Source: Eledone cirrhosa (taxonomy: Eukaryota). From it: 64,000 nucleotides of DNA. Below are positions 5,835 through 60,900 of the stretch, one piece after another; position 1 is the first letter of the stretch, and the number at the start of each line of letters is the position of its first letter. The stretch covers positions 27,466,001 through 27,530,000 of the forward strand of contig OZ024754.1 of assembly GCA_964016885.1 (NCBI GenBank), read 5' to 3'. The notes below the pieces were generated by a model that did not search any database, was not told the DNA's origin, and saw nothing but the letters and a program-made list of their open reading frames with translations. A program made the translations under genes and the position numbers.

Positions 5835-6025
5835 TTAATATAGATGAGATTCTACAGGACTAGAACTGTTTCATTCATTAGAAATCATCAGGATTCCTGA
5901 TGATTTCTAATGAATGAAACAGTTCTAGTCCTGTAGAATCTCATCTATATTAAAACTGTTATACTCTGCTATGTATTGAGTACCTTACTTACTGTGGTTA
6001 CCTCCGATTCAACCCGGAATAACGT
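5831..6025 (+). mobile_element. Perfect 63-bp-arm palindrome plus 68-nt tail; PLE pLTR remnant with HHR core
   Basis: Centre at 5894; CTGATGA-TTTC TAAT GAAT-GAAAC AGTT in the right arm; relatives at 9917-9978, 25177-25325, 39391-39515. Confidence 0.75.
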
Positions 6026-7194: not shown

Positions 7195-7353
7195 TAAGAT
7201 CAAAAGATCGTTAAAAGAGTTCCATGTATTTTATTATGCGCATTTCAAAAACAAATATCATGGGGTGATATTTGCGTTCTCATCAGATAAAATAGGGAAA
7301 CATGATATGAAGTTTAAAAAACACTTGCGAGCAGTGAATTGTTAAATCAACAT
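7195..7353 (-). mobile_element. pLTR fragment with HHR (family of 43156-45380 and 59808-59997)
   Basis: Similar to 43157-43323. Confidence 0.8.
7229..7292 (-). ncRNA. Type I hammerhead ribozyme
   Basis: TTTTAT-CTGATGA-GAACGCAAATATCA/TGATATTTGTTTTT-GAAA-TGCGCA-TA|ATAAAA; palindromic stem III. Confidence 0.8.
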
Positions 7354-10169: not shown

Positions 10170-10362
10170 ATTAGAAATTAGAAATTATAAGCTTTCACCG
10201 TATTTTAGACTAAAGAAATGTCTAGCCTGATGAGTGTTGCCGAGCAACATGTACGGCAACACTCATCTTTTTCCATTTCTCCGAGGGTTATAAACCCCAC
10301 TATCAGGCTAGAAATTTCTTTAGTCTAAAATACGGTGAAAGCTTATAATTTCTAATTTCTAA
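10170..10362. mobile_element. Fold-back element with ~62-bp inverted arms and a truncated HHR core
   Basis: 10171-10231 vs 10302-10362; CTGATGA-GTGTTGC CGA GCAACAT-G, broken by a local inversion. Confidence 0.55.
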
Positions 10363-15332: not shown

Positions 15333-16489
<1,157 letters not shown>

Positions 16490-18261: not shown

Positions 18262-20287
18262 TATAGAGAAAAATACTGCAGGTAGCACATGGTAACATGT
18301 AATAAAATAAGTCCCTCATCAGTGATTTGCCGAAGATCATAGATATTTCATTGCATTAAAAATCATATATCTCACTTCGGTGCAATAATAACCAAAATAA
18401 GTTATTAGGACAATTAAAACGCGTAAAGCGAGTGAGACAGGAGAACAACAGAAAATATAGCATACCTTAGGGGAGAAACAAGCTTCAAAAATTATTCTGT
18501 TTAGCATAAGCTAGGTGAATATATGAGAGCTTAGAGAATAGTACCAACACGAACGAAAGCTATTGAGCAGAGAGAGAAAAAATAGCGTTCGTGAGTGCAG
18601 GATGAAATGAAGAGAAGAGGGAGAAAAACAGTGAGTGAGTGAAAGTGTGAGGAAGAGTTAACGGACAAGACAGAGGGGGAGAAACAGAGAGAATGGGGGA
18701 ACAGTAAGAGAGAGAGAAAAAAACACAGAATCGCAATGGTAAATATATGTATTAAAATATAGAGAAAAATACTGCAGGTAGCACATGGTAACATGTAATA
18801 AAATAAGTCCCTCATCAGTGATTTGTCGAAGATCATAGATATTTCATTGCATTAAAAATCATATATCTCACTTCGGTGCAATAATAACCAAAATAAGTTA
18901 TTAGGACAATTAAAACGCGTAAAGCGAGTGAGACAGGAGAACAACAGAAAATATAGCATACCTTAGGGGAGAAACAAGCTTCAAAAATTATTCTGTTTAG
19001 CATAAGCTAGGTGAATATATGAGAGCTTAGAGAATAGTACCAACACGAACGAAAGCTATTGAGCAGAGAGAGAAAAAATAGCGTTCGTGAGTGCAGGATG
19101 AAATGAAGAGAAGAGGGAGAAAAACAGTGAGTGAGTGAGTGAAAGTGTGAGGAAGAGTTAACGGACAAGACAGAGGGGGAGAAACAGAGAGAATGGGGGA
19201 ACAGTAAGAGAGAGAGAAAAAAACACAGAATCGCAGTGGTAAATATATGTATTAAAATATAGAGAAAAATACTGCAGGTAGCACATGGTAACATGTAATA
19301 AAATAAGTCCCTCATCAGTGATTTGCCGAAGATCATAGATATTTCATTGCATTAAAAATCATATATCTCACTTCGGTGCAATAATAACCAAAATAAGTTA
19401 TTAGGACAATTAAAACGCGTAAAGCGAGTGAGACAGGAGAACAACAGAAAATATAGCATGCCTTAGGGGAGAAACAAGCTTCAAAAATTATTCTGTTTAG
19501 CATAAGCTAGGTGAATATATGAGAGCTTAGAGAATAGTACCAACACGAACGAAAGCTATTGAGCAGAGAGAAAAAAAATAGCGTTCGTGAGTGCAGGATG
19601 AAATGAAGAGAAGAGGGAGAAAAACAGTGAGTGAGTGAAAGTGTGAGGAAGAGTTAACGGACAAGACAGAGGGGGAGAAACAGAGAGAATGGGGGAACAG
19701 TAAGAGAGAGAGAAAAAAACACAGAATCGCAGTGGTAAATATATGTATTAAAATATAGAGAAAAATACTGCAGGTAGCACATGGTAACATGTAATAAAAT
19801 AAGTCCCTCATCAGTGATTTGCCGAAGATCATAGATATTTCATTGCATTAAAAATCATATATCTCACTTCGGTGCAATAATAACCAAAATAAGTTATTAG
19901 GACAATTAAAACGCGTAAAGCGAGTGAGACAGGAGAACAACAGAAAATATAGCATACCTTAGGGGAGAAACAAGCTTCAAAAATTATTCTGTTTAGCATA
20001 AGCTAGGTGAATATATGAGAGCTTAGAGAATAGTACCAACACGAACGAAAGCTATTGAGCAGAGAGAGAAAAAATAGCGTTCGTGAGTGCAGGATGAAAT
20101 GAAGAGAAGAGGGAGAAAAACAGTGAGTGAGTGAAAGTGTGAGGAAGAGTTAACGGACAAGACAGAGGGGGAGAAACAGAGAGAATGGGGGAACAGTAAG
20201 AGAGAGCGAAAAAAACACAGAATCGCAGTGGTAAATATATGTATTAAAATATAGAGAAAAATACTGCAGGTAGCACATGGTAACATA
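18255..20287 (-). repeat. Tandem array of ~496-bp units (4.1 copies) with HHR-like cores
   Basis: Unit starts at 18255, 18751, 19251, 19747, 20243; near-identical; CTGATGA and GAAA on the minus strand. Confidence 0.9.
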
Positions 20288-20473
20288 TAGTTAAAAGAAT
20301 AGAGGAGTAACACACAAGTTATTATATATTGGTAAACAGAATAGAAAATGCTGACAAATTGTTCACAGTTGAAAAATGGTTTAATTAGGAATAAAAGAGT
20401 ATTTGTGATTGTATGGGTTAGTATTCAGTTGTGGTTTTAAGTTCTTAAGTTTTTACCGGTTGCGCATTTCTAA

Positions 20474-21736
20474 ATGCTTTTCATCTTGGAGAACAATTAC
20501 TTCGTTTTCAATAACAAACCCTACAGGCAGAAATCTGGGACCGCTATGGGAACGAAAACAGCCCCTACTTATGCCATCCTAGTCATGGGATACCTGGAAA
20601 TCACCCTCTACACTAAAGTCCTAAACAAATTTGGAAACACCCTCCACTTACACATTGAAAGGAACTGGAAGCGATATCTAGATGACTGCTTCATCCTTTG
20701 GCACGAAAACATCGAAAAACTTAAAGAATTTCACACCCTTATAAATGGGCTCAACACAAATATTAACTTCACGATGGAATACAGTCATCAACAACTCCCC
20801 TTCCTCGACATCCTCATTAAGATCCATAACAAAAAAATAGAAACAGACATATACTACAAGCCCACAGACTCCAAGCAATATCTCCCCTTCAACTCTTGCC
20901 ACCCTAGACACGTTAAAATTAATATTCCCTACAACTTAGCCAAGAGAATCTGTACTGTAGTCTCCAATAAAAACATCTGCTACTTACGGCTACAAGAACT
21001 AAAGGACACACTCATAGGCAGGGACTACCCTGCATCACTAATTGACAATGGAATCCAACGTGCCCTAAAACTCAGTACCCAGGACCTTAGACACCCTAAA
21101 GTAAATCAACCAAAACTAAAAGCTCTTCCATACATCTCCACACACAACCCCCTCATCAATGAGGCCTTTGACACCATCCTCCAGAACATCCCTGTATTGA
21201 AAAAGGACCATAGAATGAACCAAATTCTACGAACACACGATATCATAAAGAGCAAAAGACAATCCAAGTCAATGAAAAACATCTTAACACATGCCAAAGT
21301 ACTGCCAACCACAACAACGAAACCCACAGTTAAAAAATGCGATAGACCCAACTGTGGCATTTGCATCAACCTAATAGAGTGTTCGGAATTCTATTTCAAA
21401 GATGGACAACGTTTTATAGTAAAACACAATTTCACATGTGCATCGGAAAATCTAATATATGTATTAACTTGTTCAGGTTGTCGAGAACAATACATAGGCC
21501 AGACCAAAAACAGCCTCCGCCAACGCATGACTGTCCATAGATCCCAAATTAAAATACGGGAATACAGGAAAATACCACTGAGTGAACACATTGATACCTG
21601 TGCCGCCCAAAATCATCCCAACTTCAGAATCTTTCCCCTCTACAAATTTAAAGATAATGCCACCCACACCCAGCGCATCAGCAAGGAATCTTACTTCATT
21701 AACAAATACGGACCCCGTCTAAACACTTCTCCCTAA
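20474..21736 (+). CDS. PLE reverse transcriptase (C-terminal half) + GIY-YIG endonuclease, Neptune-like
   Basis: GTAMGT, RYLDD, LPFLD, YYKPT, SCHP, CxxxxCxxC linker (CDRPNCGIC), NLIY..CSGC..YIGQT; open frame, ATG supplied by the inverted pLTR. Confidence 0.92.
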   Translation: MLFILENNYFVFNNKPYRQKSGTAMGTKTAPTYAILVMGYLEITLYTKVLNKFGNTLHLHIERNWKRYLDDCFILWHENIEKLKEFHTLINGLNTNINFTMEYSHQQLPFLDILIKIHNKKIETDIYYKPTDSKQYLPFNSCHPRHVKINIPYNLAKRICTVVSNKNICYLRLQELKDTLIGRDYPASLIDNGIQRALKLSTQDLRHPKVNQPKLKALPYISTHNPLINEAFDTILQNIPVLKKDHRMNQILRTHDIIKSKRQSKSMKNILTHAKVLPTTTTKPTVKKCDRPNCGICINLIECSEFYFKDGQRFIVKHNFTCASENLIYVLTCSGCREQYIGQTKNSLRQRMTVHRSQIKIREYRKIPLSEHIDTCAAQNHPNFRIFPLYKFKDNATHTQRISKESYFINKYGPRLNTSP

Positions 21737-22254
21737 GATGAACCCACAACATACACACGTCAACATACATACCTACATCAGTACACATCTCTACCCACAT
21801 ATAAACACAATGACACACGTAAACACACATGCTCTATGGTGCAATACAAAAAAATATATGTGCATATATATGTATGTATATATGTATATATATATGTAGT
21901 GAATATATGTATGTGTATATATATATAGTGAATATCATTTCACACCTTTTATTGTTAAGATTTTTGATGTTCTATTAAGAGAACCGATTTTACTGAAAAA
22001 ATCGAATAATGTACACCATTTTACCAGGGGGAAAAAAATACTGGTCCACCCACACACACACACACACACACACATATATACACAAACACATACACACGCG
22101 TACATCAACATACAAAGAGACTTATACACACACACACACACACACGCGCGCGCACTTCTCCGTATAAGACAAAAGCTGAAAAATATCTTTTGACATGCTA
22201 AAATACCCCCCATTGCTTTCAGACACATTCTTACTGACCATCGAATTACTCTGC

Positions 22255-22385
<131 letters not shown>

Positions 22386-22456
22386 ATCTTAATAGCCATT
22401 TGACACACATCGCTGCTGGCCATTGTCGCAGCATCGCACACCTTACTACTACTACT

Positions 22457-22503
<47 letters not shown>

Positions 22504-22545
22504 TACACACACACACCTATTTGTTGTGAAAGAGTCATTTCTCAA

Positions 22546-22773
22546 TCTTGGCGCAAAACCAATTTTTTATCCACATGACCTCTACCGACCAATCAAAATT
22601 GTTTTGACCAAGAATTTTTGCTGGAGCCACTTTTTTAACATAAAAACAGTCTTGGCGCAAAATCAACTTTTTACATTCACATGACCTCTACCGACCAATC
22701 AAAATTGTTTTGACCACAAGCATTTTTGCAACACAAAAATAACGCTGGAGCCACTTTTTTAACATAAAAACAG
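22546..22773 (+). repeat. ~105-bp tandem duplication with CCAAT boxes in the PLE 3' region
   Basis: TCTTGGCGCAAAA...GACCAATCA...AACATAAAAACAG twice. Confidence 0.8.
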
Positions 22774-22989
22774 GTAGAATTCCCAAAACTAATCAGATCA
22801 GAGCAAACAGCACGGACACTCTATCTCAAAATTATTTTTGAAAAGCATTTAGAAATGCGCAACCGGTAAAAACTTAAAAACTTAAAACCACAACTGAATA
22901 CTAACCCATACAATCACTAATACTCTTTTATTCCTAATTAAACCATTTTTCAACTGTGAACAATTTGTCAGCATTTTCTATTCCGTTTA

Positions 22990-29264: not shown

Positions 29265-29941
<677 letters not shown>

Positions 29942-30161
29942 AATTAAGTTAAAAATGTACATCCACATATGTATACTGAAATACTAGTATGCATATGAAT
30001 ACACACACGTGTACATATGTAGATGTACCGAGTTTTCACTGGTCACTTTACTGTGAGTGTCCAGCTATTCTGTATGTAAACACACAGACAAACCGGTTTT
30101 TAGAGTCATACTGGTTTTTGAGGAAACACCTTTCCTCTATTCTCCAGAAAGCCAGACAAGG

Positions 30162-30206
30162 AATATTGGACTAGTTTCGATGTTGTTACATCTCATCAGC
30201 AATATT
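30162..30206 (-). ncRNA. Type I hammerhead ribozyme (also at 30627, 31092, 31557, 32022)
   Basis: Reverse complement of the motif at 32586. Confidence 0.92.
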
Positions 30207-32585
30207 TACCTATCTTCCGGCCTCTCTAGAGAATCGTGAAAGCACATATCGCTATATGCTTTTTCCATGAAAATTAGTAGTGGGCAGACCAATTTGCATA
30301 GAGCGTGAGTACGTACCGGTTCAACGGAGACGATAAAAACAAATAACGAAACGAAATTAAATTTCGTTTCGTTTGTAACTCACTTTTGTATGACTGACGC
30401 TTAAACAATTAAGTTAAAAATGTACATCCACATATGTATACTGAAATACTAGTATGCATATGAATACACACACGTGTACATATGTAGATGTACCGAGTTT
30501 TCACTGGTCACTTTACTGTGAGTGTCCAGCTATTCTGTATGTAAACACACAGACAAACCGGTTTTTAGAGTCATACTGGTTTTTGAGGAAACACCTTTCC
30601 TCTATTCTCCAGAAAGCCAGACAAGGAATATTGGACTAGTTTCGATGTTGTTACATCTCATCAGCAATATTTACCTATCTTCCGGCCTCTCTAGAGAATC
30701 GTGAAAGCACATATCGCTATATGCTTTTTCCATGAAAATTAGTAGTGGGCAGACCAATTTGCATAGAGCGTGAGTACGTACCGGTTCAACGGAGACGATA
30801 AAAACAAATAACGAAACGAAATTAAATTTCGTTTCGTTTGTAACTCACTTTTGTATGACTGACGCTTAAACAATTAAGTTAAAAATGTACATCCACATAT
30901 GTATACTGAAATACTAGTATGCATATGAATACACACACGTGTACATATGTAGATGTACCGAGTTTTCACTGGTCACTTTACTGTGAGTGTCCAGCTATTC
31001 TGTATGTAAACACACAGACAAACCGGTTTTTAGAGTCATACTGGTTTTTGAGGAAACACCTTTCCTCTATTCTCCAGAAAGCCAGACAAGGAATATTGGA
31101 CTAGTTTCGATGTTGTTACATCTCATCAGCAATATTTACCTATCTTCCGGCCTCTCTAGAGAATCGTGAAAGCACATATCGCTATATGCTTTTTCCATGA
31201 AAATTAGTAGTGGGCAGACCAATTTGCATAGAGCGTGAGTACGTACCGGTTCAACGGAGACGATAAAAACAAATAACGAAACGAAATTAAATTTCGTTTC
31301 GTTTGTAACTCACTTTTGTATGACTGACGCTTAAACAATTAAGTTAAAAATGTACATCCACATATGTATACTGAAATACTAGTATGCATATGAATACACA
31401 CACGTGTACATATGTAGATGTACCGAGTTTTCACTGGTCACTTTACTGTGAGTGTCCAGCTATTCTGTATGTAAACACACAGACAAACCGGTTTTTAGAG
31501 TCATACTGGTTTTTGAGGAAACACCTTTCCTCTATTCTCCAGAAAGCCAGACAAGGAATATTGGACTAGTTTCGATGTTGTTACATCTCATCAGCAATAT
31601 TTACCTATCTTCCGGCCTCTCTAGAGAATCGTGAAAGCACATATCGCTATATGCTTTTTCCATGAAAATTAGTAGTGGGCAGACCAATTTGCATAGAGCG
31701 TGAGTACGTACCGGTTCAACGGAGACGATAAAAACAAATAACGAAACGAAATTAAATTTCGTTTCGTTTGTAACTCACTTTTGTATGACTGACGCTTAAA
31801 CAATTAAGTTAAAAATGTACATCCACATATGTATACTGAAATACTAGTATGCATATGAATACACACACGTGTACATATGTAGATGTACCGAGTTTTCACT
31901 GGTCACTTTACTGTGAGTGTCCAGCTATTCTGTATGTAAACACACAGACAAATCGGTTTTTAGAGTCATACTGGTTTTTGAGGAAACACCTTTCCTCTAT
32001 TCTCCAGAAAGCCAGACAAGGAATATTGGACTAGTTTCGATGTTGTTACATCTCATCAGCAATATTTACCTATCTTCCGGCCTCTCTAGAGAATCGTGAA
32101 AGCACATATCGCTATATGCTTTTTCCATGAAAATTAGTAGTGGGCATCGAAACTAGTCCAATATTCCTTGTCTGGCTTTCTGGAGAATAGAGGAAAGGTG
32201 TTTCCTCAAAAACCAGTATGACTCTAAAAACCGGTTTGTCTGTGTGTTTACATACAGAATAGCTGGACACTCACAGTAAAGTGACCAGTGAAAACTCGGT
32301 ACATCTACATATGTACACGTGTGTGTATTCATATGCATACTAGTATTTCAGTATACATATGTGGATGTACATTTTTAACTTAATTGTTTAAGCGTCAGTC
32401 ATACAAAAGTGAGTTACAAACGAAACGAAATTTAATTTCGTTTCGTTATTTGTTTTTATCGTCTCCGTTGAACCGGTACGTACTCACGCTCTATGCAAAT
32501 TGGTCTGCCCACTACTAATTTTCATGGAAAAAGCATATAGCGATATGTGCTTTCACGATTCTCTAGAGAGGCCGGAAGATAGGTA

Positions 32586-32630
32586 AATATTGCTGATGAG
32601 ATGTAACAACATCGAAACTAGTCCAATATT
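32586..32630 (+). ncRNA. Type I hammerhead ribozyme (13 copies every 465 bp up to 38166-38210)
   Basis: AATATTG-CTGATGA-GATGT(AACA)ACATC-GAAA-CTA-GTC|CAATATT; perfect stems I and II; ACTAGT palindrome in stem III. Confidence 0.95.
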
Positions 32631-35600
32631 CCTTGTCTGGCTTTCTGGAGAATAGAGGAAAGGTGTTTCCTCAAAAACCAGTATGACTCTAAAAACCGGT
32701 TTGTCTGTGTGTTTACATACAGAATAGCTGGACACTCACAGTAAAGTGACCAGTGAAAACTCGGTACATCTACATATGTACACGTGTGTGTATTCATATG
32801 CATACTAGTATTTCAGTATACATATGTGGATGTACATTTTTAACTTAATTGTTTAAGCGTCAGTCATACAAAAGTGAGTTACAAACGAAACGAAATTTAA
32901 TTTCGTTTCGTTATTTGTTTTTATCGTCTCCGTTGAACCGGTACGTACTCACGCCCTATGCAAATTGGTCTGCCCACTACTAATTTTCATGGAAAAAGCA
33001 TATAGCGATATGTGCTTTCACGATTCTCTAGAGAGGCCGGAAGATAGGTAAATATTGCTGATGAGATGTAACAACATCGAAACTAGTCCAATATTCCTTG
33101 TCTGGCTTTCTGGAGAATAGAGGAAAGGTGTTTCCTCAAAAACCAGTATGACTCTAAAAACCGGTTTGTCTGTGTGTTTACATACAGAATAGCTGGACAC
33201 TCACAGTAAAGTGACCAGTGAAAACTCGGTACATCTACATATGTACACGTGTGTGTATTCATATGCATACTAGTATTTCAGTATACATATGTGGATGTAC
33301 ATTTTTAACTTAATTGTTTAAGCGTCAGTCATACAAAAGTGAGTTACAAACGAAACGAAATTTAATTTCGTTTCGTTATTTGTTTTTATCGTCTCCGTTG
33401 AACCGGTACGTACTCACGCTCTATGCAAATTGGTCTGCCCACTACTAATTTTCATGGAAAAAGCATATAGCGATTTGTGCTTTCACGATTCTCTAGAGAG
33501 GCCGGAAGATAGGTAAATATTGCTGATGAGATGTAACAACATCGAAACTAGTCCAATATTCCTTGTCTGGCTTTCTGGAGAATAGAGGAAAGGTGTTTCC
33601 TCAAAAACCAGTATGACTCTAAAAACCGGTTTGTCTGTGTGTTTACATACAGAATAGCTGGACACTCACAGTAAAGTGACCAGTGAAAACTCGGTACATC
33701 TACATATGTACACGTGTGTGTATTCATATGCATACTAGTATTTCAGTATACATATGTGGATGTACATTTTTAACTTAATTGTTTAAGCGTCAGTCATACA
33801 AAAGTGAGTTACAAACGAAACGAAATTTAATTTCGTTTCGTTATTTGTTTTTATCGTCTCCGTTGAACCGGTACGTACTCACGCTCTATGCAAATTGGTC
33901 TGCCCACTACTAATTTTCATGGAAAAAGCATATAGCGATATGTGCTTTCACGATTCTCTAGAGAGGCCGGAAGATAGGTAAATATTGCTGATGAGATGTA
34001 ACAACATCGAAACTAGTCCAATATTCCTTGTCTGGCTTTCTGGAGAATAGAGGAAAGGTGTTTCCTCAAAAACCAGTATGACTCTAAAAACCGGTTTGTC
34101 TGTGTGTTTACATACAGAATAGCTGGACACTCACAGTAAAGTGACCAGTGAAAACTCGGTACATCTACATATGTACACGTGTGTGTATTCATATGCATAC
34201 TAGTATTTCAGTATACATATGTGGATGTACATTTTTAACTTAATTGTTTAAGCGTCAGTCATACAAAAGTGAGTTACAAACGAAACGAAATTTAATTTCG
34301 TTTCGTTATTTGTTTTTATCGTCTCCGTTGAACCGGTACGTACTCACGCCCTATGCAAATTGGTCTGCCCACTACTAATTTTCATGGAAAAAGCATATAG
34401 CGATATGTGCTTTCACGATTCTCTAGAGAGGCCGGAAGATAGGTAAATATTGCTGATGAGATGTAACAACATCGAAACTAGTCCAATATTCCTTGTCTGG
34501 CTTTCTGGAGAATAGAGGAAAGGTGTTTCCTCAAAAACCAGTATGACTCTAAAAACCGGTTTGTCTGTGTGTTTACATACAGAATAGCTGGACACTCACA
34601 GTAAAGTGACCAGTGAAAACTCGGTACATCTACATATGTACACGTGTGTGTATTCATATGCATACTAGTATTTCAGTATACATATGTGGATGTACATTTT
34701 TAACTTAATTGTTTAAGCGTCAGTCATACAAAAGTGAGTTACAAACGAAACGAAATTTAATTTCGTTTCGTTATTTGTTTTTATCGTCTCCGTTGAACCG
34801 GTACGTACTCACGCTCTATGCAAATTGGTCTGCCCACTACTAATTTTCATGGAAAAAGCATATAGCGATTTGTGCTTTCACGATTCTCTAGAGAGGCCGG
34901 AAGATAGGTAAATATTGCTGATGAGATGTAACAACATCGAAACTAGTCCAATATTCCTTGTCTGGCTTTCTGGAGAATAGAGGAAAGGTGTTTCCTCAAA
35001 AACCAGTATGACTCTAAAAACCGGTTTGTCTGTGTGTTTACATACAGAATAGCTGGACACTCACAGTAAAGTGACCAGTGAAAACTCGGTACATCTACAT
35101 ATGTACACGTGTGTGTATTCATATGCATACTAGTATTTCAGTATACATATGTGGATGTACATTTTTAACTTAATTGTTTAAGCGTCAGTCATACAAAAGT
35201 GAGTTACAAACGAAACGAAATTTAATTTCGTTTCGTTATTTGTTTTTATCGTCTCCGTTGAACCGGTACGTACTCACGCTCTATGCAAATTGGTCTGCCC
35301 ACTACTAATTTTCATGGAAAAAGCATATAGCGATATGTGCTTTCACGATTCTCTAGAGAGGCCGGAAGATAGGTAAATATTGCTGATGAGATGTAACAAC
35401 ATCGAAACTAGTCCAATATTCCTTGTCTGGCTTTCTGGAGAATAGAGGAAAGGTGTTTCCTCAAAAACCAGTATGACTCTAAAAACCGGTTTGTCTGTGT
35501 GTTTACATACAGAATAGCTGGACACTCACAGTAAAGTGACCAGTGAAAACTCGGTACATCTACATATGTACACGTGTGTGTATTCATATGCATACTAGTA

Positions 35601-38497
35601 TTTCAGTATACATATGTGGATGTACATTTTTAACTTAATTGTTTAAGCGTCAGTCATACAAAAGTGAGTTACAAACGAAACGAAATTTAATTTCGTTTCG
35701 TTATTTGTTTTTATCGTCTCCGTTGAACCGGTACGTACTCACGCTCTATGCAAATTGGTCTGCCCACTACTAATTTTCATGGAAAAAGCATATAGCGATA
35801 TGTGCTTTCACGATTCTCTAGAGAGGCCGGAAGATAGGTAAATATTGCTGATGAGATGTAACAACATCGAAACTAGTCCAATATTCCTTGTCTGGCTTTC
35901 TGGAGAATAGAGGAAAGGTGTTTCCTCAAAAACCAGTATGACTCTAAAAACCGGTTTGTCTGTGTGTTTACATACAGAATAGCTGGACACTCACAGTAAA
36001 GTGACCAGTGAAAACTCGGTACATCTACATATGTACACGTGTGTGTATTCATATGCATACTAGTATTTCAGTATACATATGTGGATGTACATTTTTAACT
36101 TAATTGTTTAAGCGTCAGTCATACAAAAGTGAGTTACAAACGAAACGAAATTTAATTTCGTTTCGTTATTTGTTTTTATCGTCTCCGTTGAACCGGTACG
36201 TACTCACGCTCTATGCAAATTGGTCTGCCCACTACTAATTTTCATGGAAAAAGCATATAGCGATATGTGCTTTCACGATTCTCTAGAGAGGCCGGAAGAT
36301 AGGTAAATATTGCTGATGAGATGTAACAACATCGAAACTAGTCCAATATTCCTTGTCTGGCTTTCTGGAGAATAGAGGAAAGGTGTTTCCTCAAAAACCA
36401 GTATGACTCTAAAAACCGGTTTGTCTGTGTGTTTACATACAGAATAGCTGGACACTCACAGTAAAGTGACCAGTGAAAACTCGGTACATCTACATATGTA
36501 CACGTGTGTGTATTCATATGCATACTAGTATTTCAGTATACATATGTGGATGTACATTTTTAACTTAATTGTTTAAGCGTCAGTCATACAAAAGTGAGTT
36601 ACAAACGAAACGAAATTTAATTTCGTTTCGTTATTTGTTTTTATCGTCTCCGTTGAACCGGTACGTACTCACGCTCTATGCAAATTGGTCTGCCCACTAC
36701 TAATTTTCATGGAAAAAGCATATAGCGATATGTGCTTTCACGATTCTCTAGAGAGGCCGGAAGATAGGTAAATATTGCTGATGAGATGTAACAACATCGA
36801 AACTAGTCCAATATTCCTTGTCTGGCTTTCTGGAGAATAGAGGAAAGGTGTTTCCTCAAAAACCAGTATGACTCTAAAAACCGGTTTGTCTGTGTGTTTA
36901 CATACAGAATAGCTGGACACTCACAGTAAAGTGACCAGTGAAAACTCGGTACATCTACATATGTACACGTGTGTGTATTCATATGCATACTAGTATTTCA
37001 GTATACATATGTGGATGTACATTTTTAACTTAATTGTTTAAGCGTCAGTCATACAAAAGTGAGTTACAAACGAAACGAAATTTAATTTCGTTTCGTTATT
37101 TGTTTTTATCGTCTCCGTTGAACCGGTACGTACTCACGCTCTATGCAAATTGGTCTGCCCACTACTAATTTTCATGGAAAAAGCATATAGCGATATGTGC
37201 TTTCACGATTCTCTAGAGAGGCCGGAAGATAGGTAAATATTGCTGATGAGATGTAACAACATCGAAACTAGTCCAATATTCCTTGTCTGGCTTTCTGGAG
37301 AATAGAGGAAAGGTGTTTCCTCAAAAACCAGTATGACTCTAAAAACCGGTTTGTCTGTGTGTTTACATACAGAATAGCTGGACACTCACAGTAAAGTGAC
37401 CAGTGAAAACTCGGTACATCTACATATGTACACGTGTGTGTATTCATATGCATACTAGTATTTCAGTATACATATGTGGATGTACATTTTTAACTTAATT
37501 GTTTAAGCGTCAGTCATACAAAAGTGAGTTACAAACGAAACGAAATTTAATTTCGTTTCGTTATTTGTTTTTATCGTCTCCGTTGAACCGGTACGTACTC
37601 ACGCTCTATGCAAATTGGTCTGCCCACTACTAATTTTCATGGAAAAAGCATATAGCGATATGTGCTTTCACGATTCTCTAGAGAGGCCGGAAGATAGGTA
37701 AATATTGCTGATGAGATGTAACAACATCGAAACTAGTCCAATATTCCTTGTCTGGCTTTCTGGAGAATAGAGGAAAGGTGTTTCCTCAAAAACCAGTATG
37801 ACTCTAAAAACCGGTTTGTCTGTGTGTTTACATACAGAATAGCTGGACACTCACAGTAAAGTGACCAGTGAAAACTCGGTACATCTACATATGTACACGT
37901 GTGTGTATTCATATGCATACTAGTATTTCAGTATACATATGTGGATGTACATTTTTAACTTAATTGTTTAAGCGTCAGTCATACAAAAGTGAGTTACAAA
38001 CGAAACGAAATTTAATTTCGTTTCGTTATTTGTTTTTATCGTCTCCGTTGAACCGGTACGTACTCACGCTCTATGCAAATTGGTCTGCCCACTACTAATT
38101 TTCATGGAAAAAGCATATAGCGATATGTGCTTTCACGATTCTCTAGAGAGGCCGGAAGATAGGTAAATATTGCTGATGAGATGTAACAACATCGAAACTA
38201 GTCCAATATTCCTTGTCTGGCTTTCTGGAGAATAGAGGAAAGGTGTTTCCTCAAAAACCAGTATGACTCTAAAAACCGGTTTGTCTGTGTGTTTACATAC
38301 AGAATAGCTGGACACTCACAGTAAAGTGACCAGTGAAAACTCGGTACATCTACATATGTACACGTGTGTGTATTCATATGCATACTAGTATTTCAGTATA
38401 CATATGTGGATGTACATTTTTAACTTAATTGTTTAAGCGTCAGTCATACAAAAGTGAGTTACAAACGAAACGAAATTTAATTTCGTTTCGTTATTTG

Positions 38498-39143: not shown

Positions 39144-39152
<9 letters not shown>

Positions 39153-39359
39153 TAACAGATTAAAGTTTAAGCAAAGAATCGCTGCTTTCACCCTTAACGG
39201 GATCTTCTGTAGATCCCGTTAAGGGTGAAAGCAGCGATTCTTTGCTTAAACTTTAATCTGTTATTTTAATAAATATTTGCTCTACGGTTCTTATATATTT
39301 GATATATATTTATCCTTATCGAGCCCTCTTGGAATTTTAGTCTTCAAATTTATTATTAT

Positions 39360-39364: not shown

Positions 39365-39390
<26 letters not shown>

Positions 39391-39393
<3 letters not shown>

Positions 39394-39515
39394 GACTAGA
39401 ACTGTTTCATTCGAAGGAAACAGTTCTAGTCTTGTAGAAACCATTTAAAAATGTATACTCTTCTATGTATTGAGTACCATACTTACTCTGGTTACTCCCG
39501 ATTATACCCGGGATA
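39391..39515 (+). mobile_element. Short fold-back pLTR remnant (5831 family)
   Basis: AAGACTAGAACTGTTTC / GAAACAGTTCTAGTCTT plus the family tail. Confidence 0.65.
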
Positions 39516-43155: not shown

Positions 43156-45597
<2,442 letters not shown>

Positions 45598-46125: not shown

Positions 46126-49100
46126 GTAGTTTAGAATGCCACAACAATGCAGATGGGAAATCTCGAGGTAAGAAGTGAGTGAGAAATAGGAGAAAAGTGA
46201 AAATGAAAATGAAAACAAAACAAAGGTAGAAGGGTTACCGTAGAGGAGATTTAATCCCAATATTTCGGGCTCACGCCCATCAACGGGGGAAAAGTTCCAA
46301 AAGGGGGGGGGGGGGAACAGGCTAAGCCGGAGAAAGTTGTATTGTCGTTAAAACTTAGGAATGCCGTTATGGGGAAAATTCAAACGAGGGAAAGAATGCG
46401 CGTGCGCGTGATAGGCTGTGGCAAAAGCTACTGACCAATTGGGTTAAATCAAGAAGCAATGAGTGTGAAAGGTGGTAGGTTGTATAAACATGTGTGCGTG
46501 TATAAATATAGATGTGTGTGTGTATGTGTATGGGTATACATATAAGTGCGTGTGTGTGAAGGATAGTAGGCCGTAGGGGCTGTTACTAGTCACTATGTTT
46601 AAATTAGCCATATCAGCTCATTTCTCTCAGCCCGGTTGTTAACTGGGGGTCTGAGGTTCTTAATAACAAGTGTTTCCTTTATCCTTAAGGATCCGATGCT
46701 GCGTTCAGTCGCTAGGACTGTGACCAAGGGTCTGCCCTGTGGGTTTCCGCATTTAAGGATGTGTTTACGGAAGGAAGATGCGTTGGTGTTGACATGTTCC
46801 TTGATACGAACATGTAGAGGTCGGATGGTGCTACCTATGTAAAACTTGTTACATTTATCGCATTGAATCTTATATACGACATAGGTGCGTAGGCAATCTG
46901 CCCCCCGTATCGGGCAGTTGCTGAGGGAACACGTCCCATCTGACTCGTCGGGTTTGTTGGAGAGGCATCTTCGGAGCGAAGGTCCTGTGTGGGCCAAATG
47001 TATGTCAAGTCCCTCCCTCCGTATGGCCCTGCGGATGGCGTTCGTGGTATATTCACTCAGGTGGGGGATTTTAAAGAAGCACCTGCTTTTATCTAAGTTT
47101 CTAGTGGGTGTCTGTCTATTGGGTCTGGGGTCTCTAATTCCGTTAATCAGTCGCTTGGGATATCCATTAGACTTGAGTAGATTACGGAATTGCGTGGTAT
47201 GGGTTAGACCACCCATCGGGTCGCTGCATCTATTAGTGATCCGTGTAAGTTCATTTAGGACATAGCCTCTCTTAGCGTTGTTGGGGAGGGCTGAGTTGTA
47301 ATGCACAAATAAGTCCTTGCACGCTGCCTTGCGGTAGAAGGTGGTGTTTATGTCTCCTTCTTCCGAGATGTTGATACGGAAGTCGAGGAGGGCGAGTGAC
47401 CCGTCTTCTCCAGGGTGTTCGATGGTGAAATCGACGTGATGGTCAGTGTCGTTGAAGATTTGGTGAATTTCAATTCGCCATCTCCCGGGAAGAAGTGAGT
47501 ATCAGTATGTCATCGACGTATCTGGAGTAGAAGGCGACGGCGTTGGGTTGGCAGGTGTTGAGTGCCTTGCGTTCCAGGTGGTCCATGTATGAGATCGCAA
47601 GTATGCCGGACAGACTAGAGCCCATAGGTAGCCCAGAGATCTGTTTGTACGTGTGGCCGAGGAAATTGAAGAATGCATTATCCACAACGAAGGAGAGGAG
47701 TTGGTGGATGTCCGTGTGTGTGAGTCCGAAGCAGTGTAAGTTAGATGCTCGGACTCGTTCGGTCAACAGGTCGACGGCTGGGGATGCTGGCACGGAGGTA
47801 TAAAGGGCGATCACATCAAGACTGAAGGCATATCCGTTGTCCTTTCTGGTGTTGGGCGCCAGATGGTGTAGTCGCTCCAAGACCTCCTTTGAGCTGCAGA
47901 CGTGGGCTGGTAGTGTGTGTAGAATGGGTTTCAGTAGTGTGGAGAGCAGCCACGATATTTTGTAAAGTGGGCCCTCCACGCTAGAGACAATGGGCCTGAT
48001 TTTCAAATCGGGTCCTTGTTTATGGGTTTTCACCAGGTGGTAGAAGGTGGGTAGTTTGCTGTTTCGAGTCATTATGTTGTTTTTTACCTTCTTTGGCAGT
48101 TTTCGTTGGACACAGATGTTAGTCCATATGGTGTTAAAGCCTTCCTCTATTAGAGTCGAGGAGGTCCCTGTGACTTTCAAGTAGAGGCTGTCGTCATTAA
48201 GATGTTGGAGAGCTAAGTTGTTGTAGGTCTCTCTCGAGATGACACAGAATTCTTTCCCCTTGTCAGAGGGAAGGTAAACAAGGTTCCTGGATCTTAGGTT
48301 GGTGAGAGTATTAAATTGTGCATTGGTGAGGTTGCGTTTATTGTGTGTGTGTGTGTGTTGGGAAAGGATGTTAGAGATAGAATGTTTCAACCTGAGTAGT
48401 TTAGTGTCAAGTTCGTGGTTGGTGGGTGGGGGGTGGAGTGGGTTGTCGAGGTGGTACGTGGGGAGTGTGGGGTGGGTTATGGGGTTGTAATCGATCTCGG
48501 TGTTGTTTTGGATGGCGGTTAGCCATTTCAATTGATATGCTGTCCGACAGAAGTTGGTTTCGATGTCGAGTTTCAGTCTATCATCGAGACGCTGTGTAAT
48601 GATGAACTTGGGTCCGAGGCGCAGGAGTTCGAGTTCGTCGTTGGTGAGGGTACCGGTTAGGTCGGTAACGAGGTGTGAAGCATCGTTGGTAGGTAGATCG
48701 CTGTTGGTGGGTGTAGTGGAGGGTGTTGTATCGCTGTTGCCCCTGGTGTGGTTGTAGTCGGTCCGTCTGTGGGAGCGGATGTTGTCAATGTAGTATTTGT
48801 TTACAGTCCATTCGTATTTCCGTATAAGGCGCTGTTTATCGTATTTGACTCTGGTGTGGTAACACTGATCGATAGCTTCGCGTATTTTCTGGACCTGGTG
48901 GTCAGGGGTGAGGGTTGGAGCTATACGATCTATGTGCTCGGAGAGCGTTTGTATATGGAGTCGCAGTTGATGGTGGTTATGTCGTAGTATTTTCTTGATA
49001 AACGTGCTTTGAATGTGGCGGATGGTGTTTTCGAAGGATGGTAATCGTAAACATTCGGGTAAATGTATATTCCTGATGGTGGTTGGAATGATGTTGTTCT

Positions 49101-49844
49101 TTAGGCAGCGTTTTAAGAAGGTAATTTGGCAACCGATTGGCACGATTCTCTGATAGTCTGAATAGGTCCCTTATGGGTGCAAACAAGTCCTGGCTCAGGT
49201 GTAATGATAAGAGGGTGTTAAAGTTTGCTTGAAGCATTGTGAAATGTGTAAAATATGTAGTTTAGAAAGCCACAACAATGCAGATGGGAAATCTCGAGGT
49301 AAGAAGTGAGTGAGAAATAGGAGAAAAGTGAAAATGAAAATGAAAACAAAACAAAGGTAGAAGGGTTACCGTAGAGGAGATTTAATCCCAATATTTCGGG
49401 CTCACGCCCATCAACGGGGGAAAAGTTCCAAAAGGGGGGGAACAGGCTAAGCCGGAGAAAGTTGTAATGTCGTTAAAACTTAGGAATGCCGTTATGGGGA
49501 AAATTCAAACGAGGGAAAGAATGCGCGGGCGCGTGATAGGCTGTGGCAAAAGCTGCTGACCAATTGGGTTAAATCAATAGGGTGCGCTAGCGTGTGAAAG
49601 CCGTAAAATATGTGTGTGTAAATATATATGTGTGTGTAACTGTGTGTGTATATGTGTATGTGTGTATGTATGTGAGTGTGTGTGTGTGAAAGATAGTGGG
49701 CCGTAGAAGCTGGAAAACAAAGAGTGTGAAAGGTGGTAGGTTGTATAAATATGTGTGCGTGTATAATTATAGATGTGTGTGTGTATGTGTATGGGTATAC
49801 ATATAAGTGCGTGTGTGTGAAGGATAGTAGGCCGTAGGGGCTGT

Positions 49845-50002: not shown

Positions 50003-50228
50003 ATAGTAATAGTAATAAATTGAAGAGTAAAATCCAAAGAGGGCTCGATAAGGATAAATATATATCAATCCACGACGCAAAGTATCGTCTTCCTGTCTTC
50101 CTTCGGTTGCAACTTTTTTCGAAATATTTACTTCTGCGTTCACAGATTGATTTTTTTACTTTCAGGAGATCCCGTTAAGGGGGAAAGCAGCGATTCTTAG
50201 CTTAAACTTTAATCTGTTATCTTAATAT
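50003..50228. mobile_element. PLE-type terminal fragment (5357 family), tail joined to inverted arm
   Basis: Homology to 5357-5505 and 39295-39364. Confidence 0.6.
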
Positions 50229-50759: not shown

Positions 50760-51087
50760 GATATTAATAAATGGAAACTATATTTATAAAACCATATTTA
50801 TTTCATTATATATATTTCAGGGATACCAAATTAAATTATGGTATGCCTTCATCAGACAAAATACAATATATAACAGTTTTACAAATAAGCTTTGACGTAC
50901 CCTTTTAAAATGCAACCATTATTTTTGGAAGCCATCCGGATAGTGAGTTGTTTATATTATTTTAATAAGTCATAGTGTTAAGGACAATTGGAAAAAGACG
51001 GAGAGAAAGAAAAAGACGCAGAGAGAGAAAGAAAAAAAAACGTGGAGAAATATCGGAGAGAGAGAAATGCATGGAGAAAAAATAAAG

Positions 51088-52629
51088 ATTTATCTTACTT
51101 AAAATTATGGAAAGGGACTAGTGAGGTTATCGATTGGTTTAAAGGAATTAAATATAACTATAATAATAAGTTTATTCAGCTGGATATTGCTAACTACTAT
51201 TCATCTATCACTCCTAATCTACTGAATAAGGCACTAAATTACGCATTTAAACATACAGACCTAACTAGCAATGAAATGCACATTATATTATCGACAAGGA
51301 AAACATTGAGAGAATTTAATAACCAACTCTGGACTAGGGCAGATAGAAATAATAATTTCGACATAACTATGGGATCATCAGACTCAGCTCAGTTAACGGA
51401 CCTTGTGGGCCTATTTATAATTAATTCGCTACATAGAAAAATACCAGGTGTAACCAGAGGCTTATATCGTGATGACACGCTTTTACTTATACAAAATAAT
51501 AGCTGTGAACTAAATAGAAAAAGAAAACAAATTATACAATTTTTTAATTACCTTAATCTAAAAATAGAAATAGAGAATAACCATAAAATAGTCAATTTTC
51601 TTGACGTAACACTAAATCTCAACACATGTCTTCATTATCCATTTCACAAACTAAATGAGAACTTGAATTATGTTAATTTTAACTCTAATCACCCCAGATC
51701 TGTTAAAAATACTATAGTGAACTCTGTTCAAGAAAGAATTTCAAGAATTTCATCTAATAAAAATATATTTGATGAAAAAGCGCAGTATTACAACGAAGCG
51801 TTAGGTAGAGCTGGATATATAAATAAAATTAAATACATTGATAATAATAATAATAATAAGCAAACTAACCAAAATAATAACAATTTTAATTATGGTAACA
51901 ACTTTAATAACTATAATAGAAAACATTACAATAATTCCAAAAGCCGAAAAAGAAATAGAACTAGAAATATATTATGGTTTGCTCCCCCTTTCTCACTAAA
52001 TATTACTAAACTATTCTTTAAAGCTCTTGACAAACGCTTCCCTAGAACACATAAATATTACTCAATTTTTAATAGACACTATAAAATTAACTTACTCGTC
52101 CACCAAAAATTTAGCACAAAATATTAATAGAATTAATAATAGAAATTTAAAACCTAACCAAAATACCAATAATAACCCAAGCAATATTCAATTGAATAAC
52201 TGTAACTGTAGAAATAAATCTAACTGTCCGTTAAATAACAACTGCTTAGCTAAAAATGTAGTGTACAATTGTAATGTTAAAACTAATTTAAATTCATTTA
52301 ACTATGTTGGTTCTACCTCTACAGAATTTAAATTTCGCTTCAATAATCATAATAATTACTTCACAGATCCAAACAAAAAATCTTTAACTTCGCTATCTAG
52401 CCTACTATGGGACCTAAAACGAGATAATGTTAAATATTCGATGACTTGGAATATTATTTCATAAGCTACTCCTTTTAATTCCTCTTCAGAAAATTGTGAT
52501 CTTTGTATTGAAGAAATATTCTTTATATTAAAGTCCAAAAATTCCCTTAATTTAAGGAACAATTTATTCAGTTGCTGCAGACATAGATTGAACTCAACGT
52601 TTAAATATAAATATAAATTTAAAATGTAG
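51088..52629 (+). pseudogene. Naiad-like RT + GIY-YIG, frameshift at ~52075 and TAA at 52462
   Basis: FIQLDIANYY, FDITMGS, GLYRDD, NFLDVT, SNHP, WFAPPFS, CNCR..CPL, YVGST, CDLCIEE, CCRH. Confidence 0.9.
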
Positions 52630-55732: not shown

Positions 55733-55995
55733 AATAAATGTAATCTGAGTTTTTCGAATATTAATAATAAGATTCGATTCGTTTGCAATTATGCAAAGAA
55801 GCCTCAATTTTATAGCCATGTCAGTAGAATGGACCCTTCATTCTTGCTCTTGTGTTGGCATGCGAACAGAACTGCAGACACTAATGTTTCTGGCTTGTTT
55901 GTATAGTTGCAGACGAATCGAATGTTATTATTAATATTCGAAAAACTCAGATTACATTTATTGTATTCAGGCATGTAGAGCGAAATTTTCTTTCA
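55733..55995 (+). mobile_element. Fold-back PLE-type remnant (family of 61305-61650)
   Basis: Arms 55733-55790 and 55905-55962; ~33-nt tail. Confidence 0.7.
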
Positions 55996-56010
55996 TATAT
56001 ATATATATAT

Positions 56011-56702
56011 ATTAGAATTGGTGCTCTGAAATAGTGATGTATATATGAATGTATATATAGTGTATTTGGTAATACACTGTATGCTTAATTAAAAGCATTT
56101 TGAAGACCTTACGCTACTGTTTTAAAGTAGTGACTATGTCACTTACTTCTTTTTTCAACAAACAAAGGGAGATAAGCTGACAGATCTCTGTTTCATAATG
56201 TTGGTATACCTCAGTATACCCTTGTCTGTTGAAAATTATGAATGTTGGATTCTTATAGAATTCCAGTAATAATCTGGAACTGATTATACAGAGCGGTTGC
56301 CGGTCCAGCAAAAATTGAAAATTAGAATTGGTGCTCTGAAATAGCGCTGTATATATGAATGTATATATAGTGTATTTGGCAATACACTGTATGCTTAATT
56401 AAAAGTATTTTGAAGATTCTAATTTTCAATTTTTGCTGGACCGGCAACCGCTCTGTATAATCAGTTCCTGATTATTGCTGGAATCCTATAAGAATCGGAC
56501 ATTCATAATTTTCAACAGACAAGGGGAGTGCTAAGCTCTGAGGTATACCAACATTATGAAACAGAGATCTGTCAGCTTATCTCCATTTGTTTGTTGAAAA
56601 AAGAAGTAAGTGTCATAGTCACTACTTTAAAACAATAGCGTAAGGTCTTCAAAATGCTTTTAATTAAGCATACAGTGTATTACCAAATACACTATATATA
56701 CA

Positions 56703-56708
<6 letters not shown>
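56011..56708. mobile_element. 310-bp-unit retrozyme-like element: 1.3 units plus inverted unit, in (TA)n
   Basis: Repeat starts at 56011 and 56321; inversion at ~56416; HHR-like motif at 56532-56579. Confidence 0.7.
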
Positions 56709-56744
<36 letters not shown>

Positions 56745-56751
<7 letters not shown>

Positions 56752-57403
56752 ACTAGAAATTGATTGACATATATATACATCTAACATAAACATATGAAAC
56801 AATCATAGGGAATAATTTGTAAAAGTGTGTAAGCACACATAGCTATGTAGGTAACTAATTAAAGTTTAACTAGAACTTTAAAAATAGATACCTTATAAAT
56901 GGATTAATCTTTCTTGTATATATTATAGAAATATGTATACATTAAAGAAATATATTTAACCATCAATTTTGGATATATATACGGCCCCTTAATTGTTGAG
57001 CTAACTCAGTTGAAAGGACTCGACTGCTATTTCTAGTTGTCGATAACCCTATTCACGCCACTGAGATGAAGCTGGCACAATGTGTGTATTTTTGAAAAGT
57101 GCAACACGTGCTAATAGTCATTCGCAGATTTGAATTTGCTGTGTAAACACAGATAGTTAAGTCTTCTTCCTTGTTGAAAATCCGAATTTGGCTACTGTGG
57201 TTTACCGAACGATTGATGGTTAAATATATTGTGCTTACACACTGTTACAAATTATTCCCTGTGATTGTTACATATGTTTATGTTAGATATATATATATGT
57301 CAATCAATTTCTAGTTGATATAAAATGCTCGGATCTATACATTGGAATTTTGGAGCATATTCTACAGTGGAAATGATGCATGTCTCTCTGACATGACACC
57401 ATT
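56745..57403 (+). mobile_element. Fold-back PLE-type insertion with ~90-bp arms and ~80-nt tail
   Basis: 56745-56837 vs 57230-57322. Confidence 0.6.
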
Positions 57404-58901: not shown

Positions 58902-59807
<906 letters not shown>

Positions 59808-59815
<8 letters not shown>

Positions 59816-59997
59816 AGATCAAAAGATGGTTAAAGGAGTTCAATATATTTTATTATGCGCATAATAAAATATATTGAACTCCTTTAACCATCTTTTGATC
59901 TTATATTATGCATACTCCAGTCCCACAAACTGTAGAGTGCTTCTTATCCGATATCTGCATTGCTTTATTGTACTACAATAAAACTCACCTCCTACAT
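59808..59997 (+). mobile_element. Perfect palindrome centred on the HHR stem III (TGC|GCA) plus 88-nt tail
   Basis: Centre 59858/59859; same family as 43156-45380. Confidence 0.85.
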
Positions 59998-60014
59998 ATA
60001 TATATATATATATA

Positions 60015-60900
60015 CATGGAAAGTTATATTTAAATTGTTGGGTTAACAACGAGTAAATATTTATAACTGATATAAAAGCACTCAACAAGTATTTGGAGTA
60101 TATTTATGATATTAAATAAATGGAAACTATATTTATAAAACCATATTTATTTCGTTATATATATTTCAGGGATATCATATTAACAATATGTTATGCCTTC
60201 TTCAGATAAAATACAATATAAACAGTCTTATAAATAAATAGATACGACATACCTTTCAATCACCTTGCATTTTTGAGGTTGATTTGGCAGTAAAAAATAT
60301 TGTGGACAGTTGTAAAAAGAAAGAGATAAAGAGAGAAAGAAAGAGAAACGAAAAAGAAGAAATGCATGTGACTAAATAGAGAGATATAGAAAGATAGATA
60401 AAGAGAAGAACTTCATGTAAAGAAACAGAGAGAAATATATATAGAGAGGAAAAAAAAAAAGAAAGAGATAGATAGAGATAGATAGAGAAACTAGGAAGTT
60501 GGGTATCGGTTGATACATTTATTTATTTATTTATTTATTTATTTAGCTCTAGTATTAATGTAAAGAGAGATGTATGTAGTTAAGAGAGAAAATAGCCGTT
60601 ATATAGAGAGAAAAAAAAGAGAAAATGAAAAAGAGAAAATGAAACATAGCCAGACATAAACGATGCAGAATTTAAAACCGCTATGTTTTATCCGTAGAAA
60701 ATATTAGTTCGTATAAAACAGGCATTATAATGGAAATACCAGTATTCATGAATGAGACATGTATCTATAATGTGTGAAAAGTAATGATCTTATGTCTAGT
60801 TTTTAAAAATTCATATGTTTATATCATAATTATAAACAAACTCCCAATTCACACGAAAACATTCTCATTGTGCTATAAAAATTCAAGTATACATATATGT
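60015..60900 (-). mobile_element. Diverged 3' UTR/pLTR of the 50755 Naiad-like family, with HHR at 60149-60212
   Basis: CTGAAGA-AGGCATAACATA..TATGATATCCCT-GAAA-TATATA-TA|ACGAAAT; the inner boundary is approximate. Confidence 0.65.

What the first reader, a model, noticed from the sequence alone, without database searches (positions are those of the whole stretch)
59808..59997. Fold-back joint exactly at the ribozyme's palindromic stem III
Seen: the palindrome's axis (59858/59859, ATGC|GCAT) is the self-complementary stem III of the HHR that is intact at 7229, 43195 and 45188. Other joints also fall in or beside HHRs: 5894 (just before CTGATGA), 32145 (stem II), ~39208, ~39413, 20483 and ~55892. 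Inference: the dimerisation palindrome, or ribozyme-cleaved 5' ends, dictate where two cDNAs are joined. This hints that an HHR-linked RNA dimer is the integration substrate.
Basis: partly seen in the sequence, partly recalled or inferred. Interest (0 to 1): 0.7.

Follow-up and report, generated by a model that had tools for sequence, protein, structure and literature searches.

The report
Penelope stump joined at ribozyme palindrome
This palindrome is a tiny back-to-back double copy of the end of a Penelope-like jumping gene whose halves meet at the ribozyme's self-complementary eight bases, a joint that recurs across the genome and was likely made by two DNA copies of one RNA pairing there, while a separate cluster of joints at the predicted cut site likely records the ribozyme cutting in cells.

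Summary
Confirmed: a perfect 102-bp palindrome (59808-59909) centres in ATGCGCAT, stem III of the family's hammerhead. It is a stump-sized head-to-head insertion of a young Penelope-like family in (TA)n; only one arm carries the tail. The joint recurs at 32 places, about 40-fold above random truncation, but this is what 8 nt of microhomology predicts (a non-dimer palindrome, AATATT, is as enriched), and it is minor: 795 exact joints and 40 of 103 arm ends lie at about -115, the likely RNA 5' end; none lay in stem III. The arms behave as two cDNAs of one RNA (1 of 38 pairs mixed long/short against 19 expected; 42 of 42 share alleles), which argues against an RNA dimer as substrate. The real ribozyme signal is next door: 23 of 50 joints near the cut start both arms at +1 (2 expected), likely cDNAs run off a self-cleaved RNA; this window's joint is not one of them. 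The structure is known; earlier notes of this scan reached one-RNA, capped-end and cut-site readings on other DNA of this genome.

The parts
59808..59858 (-). Untailed arm: antisense copy of the element end from +46 (relative to the predicted cut) back to the centre of stem III
   Evidence: 51-bp perfect arm; same +46 end in the left arm of the 43175-45370 insertion and in most fetched copies
59855..59862 (.). ATGCGCAT, 8-nt self-complementary stem III; the microhomology that holds the joint
   Evidence: strongest palindrome between -130 and +46 (predicted DNA duplex -10.4 kcal/mol against -2.9 to -4.4)
59863..59864 (+). Predicted hammerhead cut (after AUA); the core CUGAUGA, stem II and GAAA are missing from this stump, so it cannot fold the ribozyme
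   Evidence: alignment to intact copies; fold of intact copy
59859..59909 (+). Tailed arm, part shared with the other arm
   Evidence: 98.5% match to 45240-45370
59910..59997 (+). [quoted passage not shown]
   Evidence: one tailed and one untailed arm in 35 of 38 pairs
59059..59807 (.). (TA)n microsatellite, left target flank
59998..60016 (.). (TA)n, right target flank; no target-site duplication can be told inside the repeat
45186..45256 (+). Intact hammerhead of the same family (core 45194-45200, stem III 45240-45247, cut 45248/45249)
43193..43263 (-). Intact hammerhead, left arm of the same long insertion
7222..7294 (-). Intact hammerhead of a sister subfamily; stem II kept by other pairs
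43175..45370 (.). Long head-to-head insertion of the same family with a near-symmetric joint at 44241/44242, about 1000 nt upstream of the ribozyme (internal control)

Best explanation
The palindrome is a stump-sized head-to-head insertion of a Penelope-like retrotransposon in (TA)n, likely made when both cut target strands primed reverse transcription of one uncut RNA at two fixed sites and the two cDNA ends then likely annealed through the 8-nt stem III palindrome as ordinary DNA microhomology. Shown: structure, fixed 3' ends (+46 and about +134), recurrence, the distribution of joints, the sorting of arm pairs. Inferred: two RT events on one RNA; run-off at the RNA's 5' end (a likely capped start at -115 in most short copies, the ribozyme cut at +1 in a small class, random breaks otherwise); annealing and trimming of the two cDNA 3' ends. 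Two antisense cDNAs can pair only at inverted microhomology, and ATGCGCAT is the strongest such site in the short repeat, so it is used often without any RNA dimer being needed.
For: Family: at least 9772 marker hits, 3673-nt unit with RT and C-terminal endonuclease motifs. Joint rate per possible joint rises about 2.6-fold per nt of microhomology among 70 clean short joints; the 8-nt class is predicted at 7 (3-15), observed 3. AATATT in stem II is enriched as much. Exact symmetric joints: 795 at CATATG (-115), 32 at stem III, 5 at AATATT. Unbiased sample: 40 of 103 arm ends at -130..-90, 0 at -14..+1. With the partner fixed at -115, the second arm shows no peak in stem III (0.31 ends per nt against 0.79 upstream, 59 of 68 loci used). 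One template: 20 short-short, 17 long-long, 1 mixed of 38 pairs (18.9 mixed expected); alleles shared in 42 of 42 pairs (0.35 expected); 5 of 17 long pairs end within 40 nt of each other (permutation P 0.0006); near-symmetric ends in excess even without the two palindromes (12 against 6.3, P 0.02). Either arm may be the longer one, so neither is a copy of the other. A non-template G precedes -115 in 10 of 16 non-template cases, as cap copying would give. In vitro, a Penelope-like protein extends both target strands from two internal start sites that bound the tail and uses uncut RNA mainly (PMC11167929).
Against: The slope is extrapolated from few events and flattens at 4-6 nt (0.2-0.4 per class); against that plateau stem III is in excess, as is AATATT, while the six asymmetric 6-nt classes have 0 events, so symmetry matters beyond length. 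There is no GC-rich 8-nt palindrome outside the ribozyme as a matched control. Patterns differ in the subfamilies they reach (11 of the 32 stem III joints are in the window's subfamily group), so 795:32:5 is not strictly like for like. Shared alleles could also come from two transcripts of one source locus or from later conversion between arms. The start site at -115 is inferred from DNA only; no TATA box stands 30 nt upstream. The cut-site class shows the ribozyme does mark some joints.
Confidence: 0.7

Rival explanations
1. The folded ribozyme core (stem III paired, in a monomer helped by protein or in a dimer) stalls both reverse transcriptases, perhaps after they cross the cut, so that cDNAs end in stem III and then anneal there.
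For: Stem III (27 loci with the anchors) and the cut (23 loci) are neighbouring classes of similar size; symmetric palindromes are used more than asymmetric microhomologies of 6 nt.
Against: No peak of single arm ends at -8..-1 when the partner ends at -115 or in the unbiased sample; 27 against about 0.7 per symmetric 2-nt class is 1.9-fold per nt, below the measured 2.6.
Confidence: 0.13
2. Two RNAs paired through stem III (a double hammerhead, between molecules or between the two repeats of one transcript) are the integration substrate, each giving one arm.
For: Stem III has only 3 bp and a palindromic 2-nt loop, the form proposed to work as a dimer (PMC4209133); the cut-site class implies that cleavage, hence perhaps dimerisation, occurs; L1 'dual priming' from two RNAs has been proposed (PMC2837659).
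Against: 1 mixed pair of 38, and no pair with one arm at -115 and the other long, excludes pairing of a 5' with a 3' repeat and random pairing of RNAs; arms share alleles; long pairs end at the same internal spot. A switch from one RNA to its dimer partner would keep the direction and give no inversion (inference).
Confidence: 0.07
3. One cDNA or an antisense template folds back on itself at the palindrome and self-primes the second arm.
For: Self-priming on an antisense template was proposed for junction palindromes of rotifer Penelopes (PMC3846280); exact symmetry at this locus fits.
Against: Across the family either arm can reach further upstream and only one carries the tail, so in many pairs neither arm can be copied from the other; a fold-back within ATGCGCAT would leave a 2-nt loop.
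Confidence: 0.07
4. The palindrome is a sequencing or assembly fold-back artefact.
For: Arms are 100% identical; contigs of four public runs do not bridge the joint (inconclusive).
Against: The mirror stops at the family's fixed +46 end and only one arm has the tail; the same joint stands at 32 places with different flanks, in several subfamilies, some with diverged arms.
Confidence: 0.02

Closest known systems
Hydra clade of C-terminal-endonuclease Penelope-like elements (Craig et al. 2021, PMC8557442; section 11 and passages read)
   Same: Single ORF with RT then GIY-YIG-type domain, DKT motif, CxCX5C linker, no CCHH, CxxC and CxH near the end, hammerhead in the repeat, (TA)n targets, inverted 5'-truncated copy and one-sided tail
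   Different: Unit 3.67 kb (paper: generally under 3 kb), RWT in place of RWK, tail about 88 nt (paper: 30-40 bp for Penelope-like elements generally); no tree was built; the passages read do not map joints to the ribozyme
Head-to-head inverted pLTR insertions with junction palindromes in Adineta vaga Penelopes (Arkhipova et al. 2013, PMC3846280; passages read)
   Same: Inverted repeats head to head, palindrome at the inverted junction, optional tail
   Different: That paper explains the palindromes by self-priming on an antisense template; the pairs here favour two cDNAs from one sense RNA
Poseidon element of Anolis in vitro (Frangieh et al. 2024, PMC11167929; parts 1-2 of 4 read)
   Same: Both target strands cut and extended; two internal start sites bound the tail; uncut RNA is the main template; protein predicted to be a dimer
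   Different: They found no RNA-seq reads ending at the ribozyme cut and no need for cleavage; here a small class of genomic joints starts at the predicted cut
Minimal dimeric type I hammerheads of metazoan Penelope-like elements (Cervera and de la Pena 2014, PMC4209133; part 1 of 4 and passages read)
   Same: Type I, long stem II, tiny palindromic stem III; pairs of ribozymes on opposite strands 100-700 bp apart already noted
   Different: No link to integration joints in the passages read; activity of this ribozyme untested
L1 twin priming and proposed dual priming (PMC2837659; passages read)
   Same: Two priming events, inverted pieces joined with or without microhomology
   Different: L1 twin priming gives non-overlapping pieces with an internal deletion; here both arms copy the same stretch

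Membership tests
Endonuclease-bearing Penelope-like elements | RT with C-terminal GIY-YIG endonuclease in one ORF | tested here: inconclusive
   762-aa frame of copy L083 shows RT and GIY-YIG-like motifs by eye but no Pfam hit at E 0.001
Endonuclease-bearing Penelope-like elements | Partial tandem with pLTRs, inverted 5'-truncated copy, tail on one end | tested here: met
   L074 tandem; one tailed and one untailed arm in 35 of 38 pairs
Endonuclease-bearing Penelope-like elements | Hammerhead in the pLTR | tested here: met
Hydra clade | DKT in place of DKG; CxCX5C linker; no CCHH; CxxC and CxH beside the conserved E and N | tested here: met
   read from the L083 translation against section 11 of PMC8557442
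Hydra clade | N-terminal RWK motif | tested here: inconclusive
   L074 reads RWT at that place
Hydra clade | Insertion into (TA)n | tested here: met
Hydra clade | Placement in the RT tree | not tested
   no reference sequences fetched; the clade name was a lead from earlier notes
Type I hammerhead, minimal/dimeric form | Core CUGAUGA, GAAA, UH with stems I and II | tested here: met
   8-bp stem I and long stem II fold (stem II hairpin z -3.4; whole motif z -0.5 and -1.3); no Rfam match for this family among the 150 of 209 rows listed
Type I hammerhead, minimal/dimeric form | Short stem III with palindromic loop | tested here: met
   ATG-CG-CAT, invariant in the commonest variants
Type I hammerhead, minimal/dimeric form | Self-cleavage, dependent on dimerisation | not testable with these tools
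   only indirect: joints cluster at the predicted cut
   1 mixed pair of 38; 42 of 42 allele-concordant; near-symmetric ends

The most novel reading that the evidence does not exclude
The joints of this one family are a fossil map of the RNA's states: capped full-length (-115), self-cleaved (+1) and folded at stem III. The ribozyme, whose 3-bp stem III should need a partner, cuts in the germ line; the cut RNA is still copied twice by a dimeric RT and inserted; and the stem III class marks RT meeting the folded (dimeric) core rather than mere microhomology.
Probability: 0.15. Interest if true: 0.72.

Novelty: new member of a known kind. Interest (0 to 1): 0.45.

Why it matters
How Penelope-like elements build their inverted ends, and whether their ribozymes cut in cells, are open in the papers read (PMC8557442, PMC11167929). 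It also removes the RNA-dimer-as-substrate idea as the main route. Four searches of the held library listed no paper that maps such joints to ribozyme positions; the library lacks most subscription papers and I read no supplements (those of PMC8557442 may already list this family).

Tried and rejected
DNA search of the own genome found nothing because common words are skipped; patterns were used instead. Rfam gave only microRNA-like hits on palindromes and HH9 hits below threshold on the 465-bp array. Pfam did not recognise the family's ORF. No RNA holder was listed, so expression, start site and cleavage could not be read; this is no evidence either way. Logan contigs of four runs did not bridge the joint; palindromes collapse in such contigs, so this is inconclusive. 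Search of earlier findings by sequence was empty. One search drowned in (TA)n hits and was redone. In the first 96 short joints a peak at +1 was only faint and I first read it as absent; the targeted count overturned that. Rejected: joint at a cleaved 5' end for this locus (both arms include the base 5' of the cut); single-cDNA fold-back as the general route; 5'-with-3'-repeat double hammerhead as template; a hammerhead at 20483. Rows dropped: of 96 short loci 70 were clean, 24 had insertions or complex joints, 2 lacked a tail; 85 used for symmetry; 59 of 68 used; 4 arms that ran off the fetched piece; 62 of 162 matches and 329 of 429 were not listed, and of the 100 listed only the first rows on C1-C2 were fetched.

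Full report
Observation. The window holds a perfect palindrome with 51-bp arms and no spacer, axis 59858/59859, between (TA)n tracts. Its centre ATGCGCAT is stem III of a type I hammerhead that is whole at 45186-45256, 43193-43263 and about 7222-7294: 8-bp stem I, CUGAUGA, a long stem II, GAAA, a 3-bp stem III with a CG loop, predicted cut after AUA. In the stump the cut maps to 59863/59864 (position +1 = 59864). The left arm ends at +46, the right arm runs on through an 88-nt tail to about +134. Both arms hold the base 5' of the cut, so this joint was not made from a cleaved 5' end.

The element. A 29-nt marker has 9772 exact hits in the 3.0-Gb genome. A natural tandem copy gives a 3673-nt unit with an ORF; the 762-aa frame of L083 shows RT motifs, DKT, CxCX5C, no CCHH, CxxC and CxH, the marks of the Hydra clade in PMC8557442, though Pfam gave no hit and no tree was made. 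Inverted 5'-truncated copies, one-sided tails, junction palindromes and (TA)n targets are published features.

Where joints fall. From the first 100 marker hits (C1, 0-59 Mb) and their partner arms, 103 arm 5' ends were mapped: 40 at -130..-90 (peak -115/-116; values near -129 are alignment overrun through the joint), 47 beyond -300, 9 at -60..-15, none at -14..+1. Exact symmetric joints genome-wide: 795 at CATATG (-115), 32 at stem III, 5 at AATATT in stem II (the patterns reach different sets of subfamilies). Copies joined to other sequence also end near -115, and a non-template G precedes it in 10 of 16 non-template cases, so it is likely the capped RNA start (inference; no RNA data). The 32 stem III loci span several subfamilies, nearly all show one tailed arm and (TA)n ends, and the 29 whose flanks were compared share only other repeats; two on C9 lie 3 kb apart and may be one event.

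Is stem III special? Of 162 short head-to-head matches 96 loci were parsed. Among 70 clean joints the rate per possible joint rises from 0.003 (no microhomology) to 0.28 (4 nt), about 2.6-fold per nt; the 8-nt stem III class is predicted at 7 (3-15) and has 3. Against uniform breakage it is 41-fold enriched, AATATT 53-fold. Against this: the rate flattens at 4-6 nt and asymmetric 6-nt classes have no events, so symmetric sites are favoured beyond length; near-symmetric ends are in excess generally (19 of 85 against 6.5; 12 against 6.3 without the two palindromes). With one arm fixed at -115 (429 matches; 59 of 68 fetched loci used) the other arm's end shows no peak in stem III. ATGCGCAT is the strongest self-duplex between -130 and +46. 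So the palindrome does attract joints, most simply as microhomology between two antisense cDNAs.

The cut site. A targeted count of all joints with 0-13 nt between the +3 anchors gave 50 loci (counted by eye from the full list): 23 have both arms starting at +1 joined over 2 nt, 16 more lie within 1-2 nt; the neighbouring symmetric 2-nt classes have 0, 3, 1 and 1. The microhomology model expects 2.1 of 50 (P about 1e-18). All 23 were fetched: 22 show tail on one arm, the remaining one has an insertion in the tail, and flanks are unrelated apart from other repeats. With the same anchors stem III has 27 loci: 40 times a background symmetric 2-nt class for 6 more nt, below the measured slope, whereas the cut class has no such excuse.

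One RNA or two. Of 38 pairs resolved in the unbiased set, 20 are short-short, 17 long-long and 1 mixed, against 18.9 mixed if arms were independent; none pairs a -115 end with a long arm. Arms share subfamily alleles in 42 of 42, 37 of 37 and 30 of 30 informative pairs (0.35-0.50 expected); in the other sets 4 discordant single sites were seen. Five of 17 long pairs end within 40 nt of each other (P 0.0006), like the window's own joint at 44241. Either arm can be longer, and only one has the tail, so neither is copied from the other. This fits two RT events on one RNA, as the in vitro behaviour of a Penelope-like protein allows, and not an RNA dimer giving one arm each. Two transcripts of one locus that broke at the same place cannot be formally excluded. 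A dimer may still matter earlier, to let the ribozyme cut (PMC4209133).

They lie in or beside hammerheads in five of six cases for at least one arm, but none in stem III or at a cut. For 5894 and 39208 the ribozyme begins at the family's usual 5' end (for 5894, 30 nt behind TATAAATA), so nearness is geometry. The family at 20483 has no hammerhead core there.

Verdict. Real, recurrent, a new member of a known kind of insertion. The stem III joint is best read as microhomology joining (0.7); the RNA-dimer substrate is unlikely (0.07). The value lies in the census, above all the cut-site class and the one-RNA evidence, both of which earlier notes of this scan reached on other DNA of this genome. 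Interest 0.45.

Noticed in passing
window 29949-38479: 8.5-kb palindrome of near-identical 465-bp units, each with an HH9-like hammerhead (Rfam 38.9 bits, below threshold; stem III ACTAGT); joint at 32145 over 2 nt of microhomology. Retrozyme-like array inserted in the Penelope manner.
   Followed up: partly
window 5831-6014 and 39390-39509; loci L256-L285: Second family (17787 marker hits): hammerhead starts at the likely start site, 30 nt behind TATAAATA; most short head-to-head joints cluster there.
   Followed up: partly
window 39145-39343, 5370-5515, 50024-50214; loci L326-L355: Very abundant family (38854 marker hits) with a variant hammerhead core CAGAAGA in all intact copies seen; several 5' ends at AGTTTCAG preceded by G.
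   Followed up: partly
window 20339-22983; loci L356-L385: Penelope-like family with GIY-YIG ORF but no CUGANGA core near its 3' repeat; recurrent head-to-head joints at AGATCAGAGC (marker distance 208 in several pairs).
   Followed up: partly
L184, L083: Two near-full-length arms stop at about +136 to +140 of the upstream repeat, just where the tail (one RT start site) ends; n = 2 and close to the end of the reference used.
   Followed up: no
one search list; loci L226-L255, L286-L325: Second-arm ends often fall in T runs (-90..-85, -60..-57, -17..-12); a weak excess (21.9 ends on 32 positions against 37.1 on 76).
   Followed up: partly
one search list: No blunt joint of two +1 ends was found; the +1 class is joined over the terminal AT or with one or two extra bases.
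   Followed up: no
window 18276-20295: Four tandem units of about 496 bp on the minus strand, each with CTGATGA but no nearby GAAA stem II.
   Followed up: no
window 46599-49170 (-), 50982-52464 (+), 15755-16489 (+): Further Penelope-like RT/GIY-YIG frames of other families, one nested inside the 42.5-49.8 kb repeat pair.
   Followed up: no
window 29471-29765, 10192-10341, 55987-56759, 3199-3260: More inverted pairs, three of them with CTGANGA cores close to their centre; joints not mapped.
   Followed up: no
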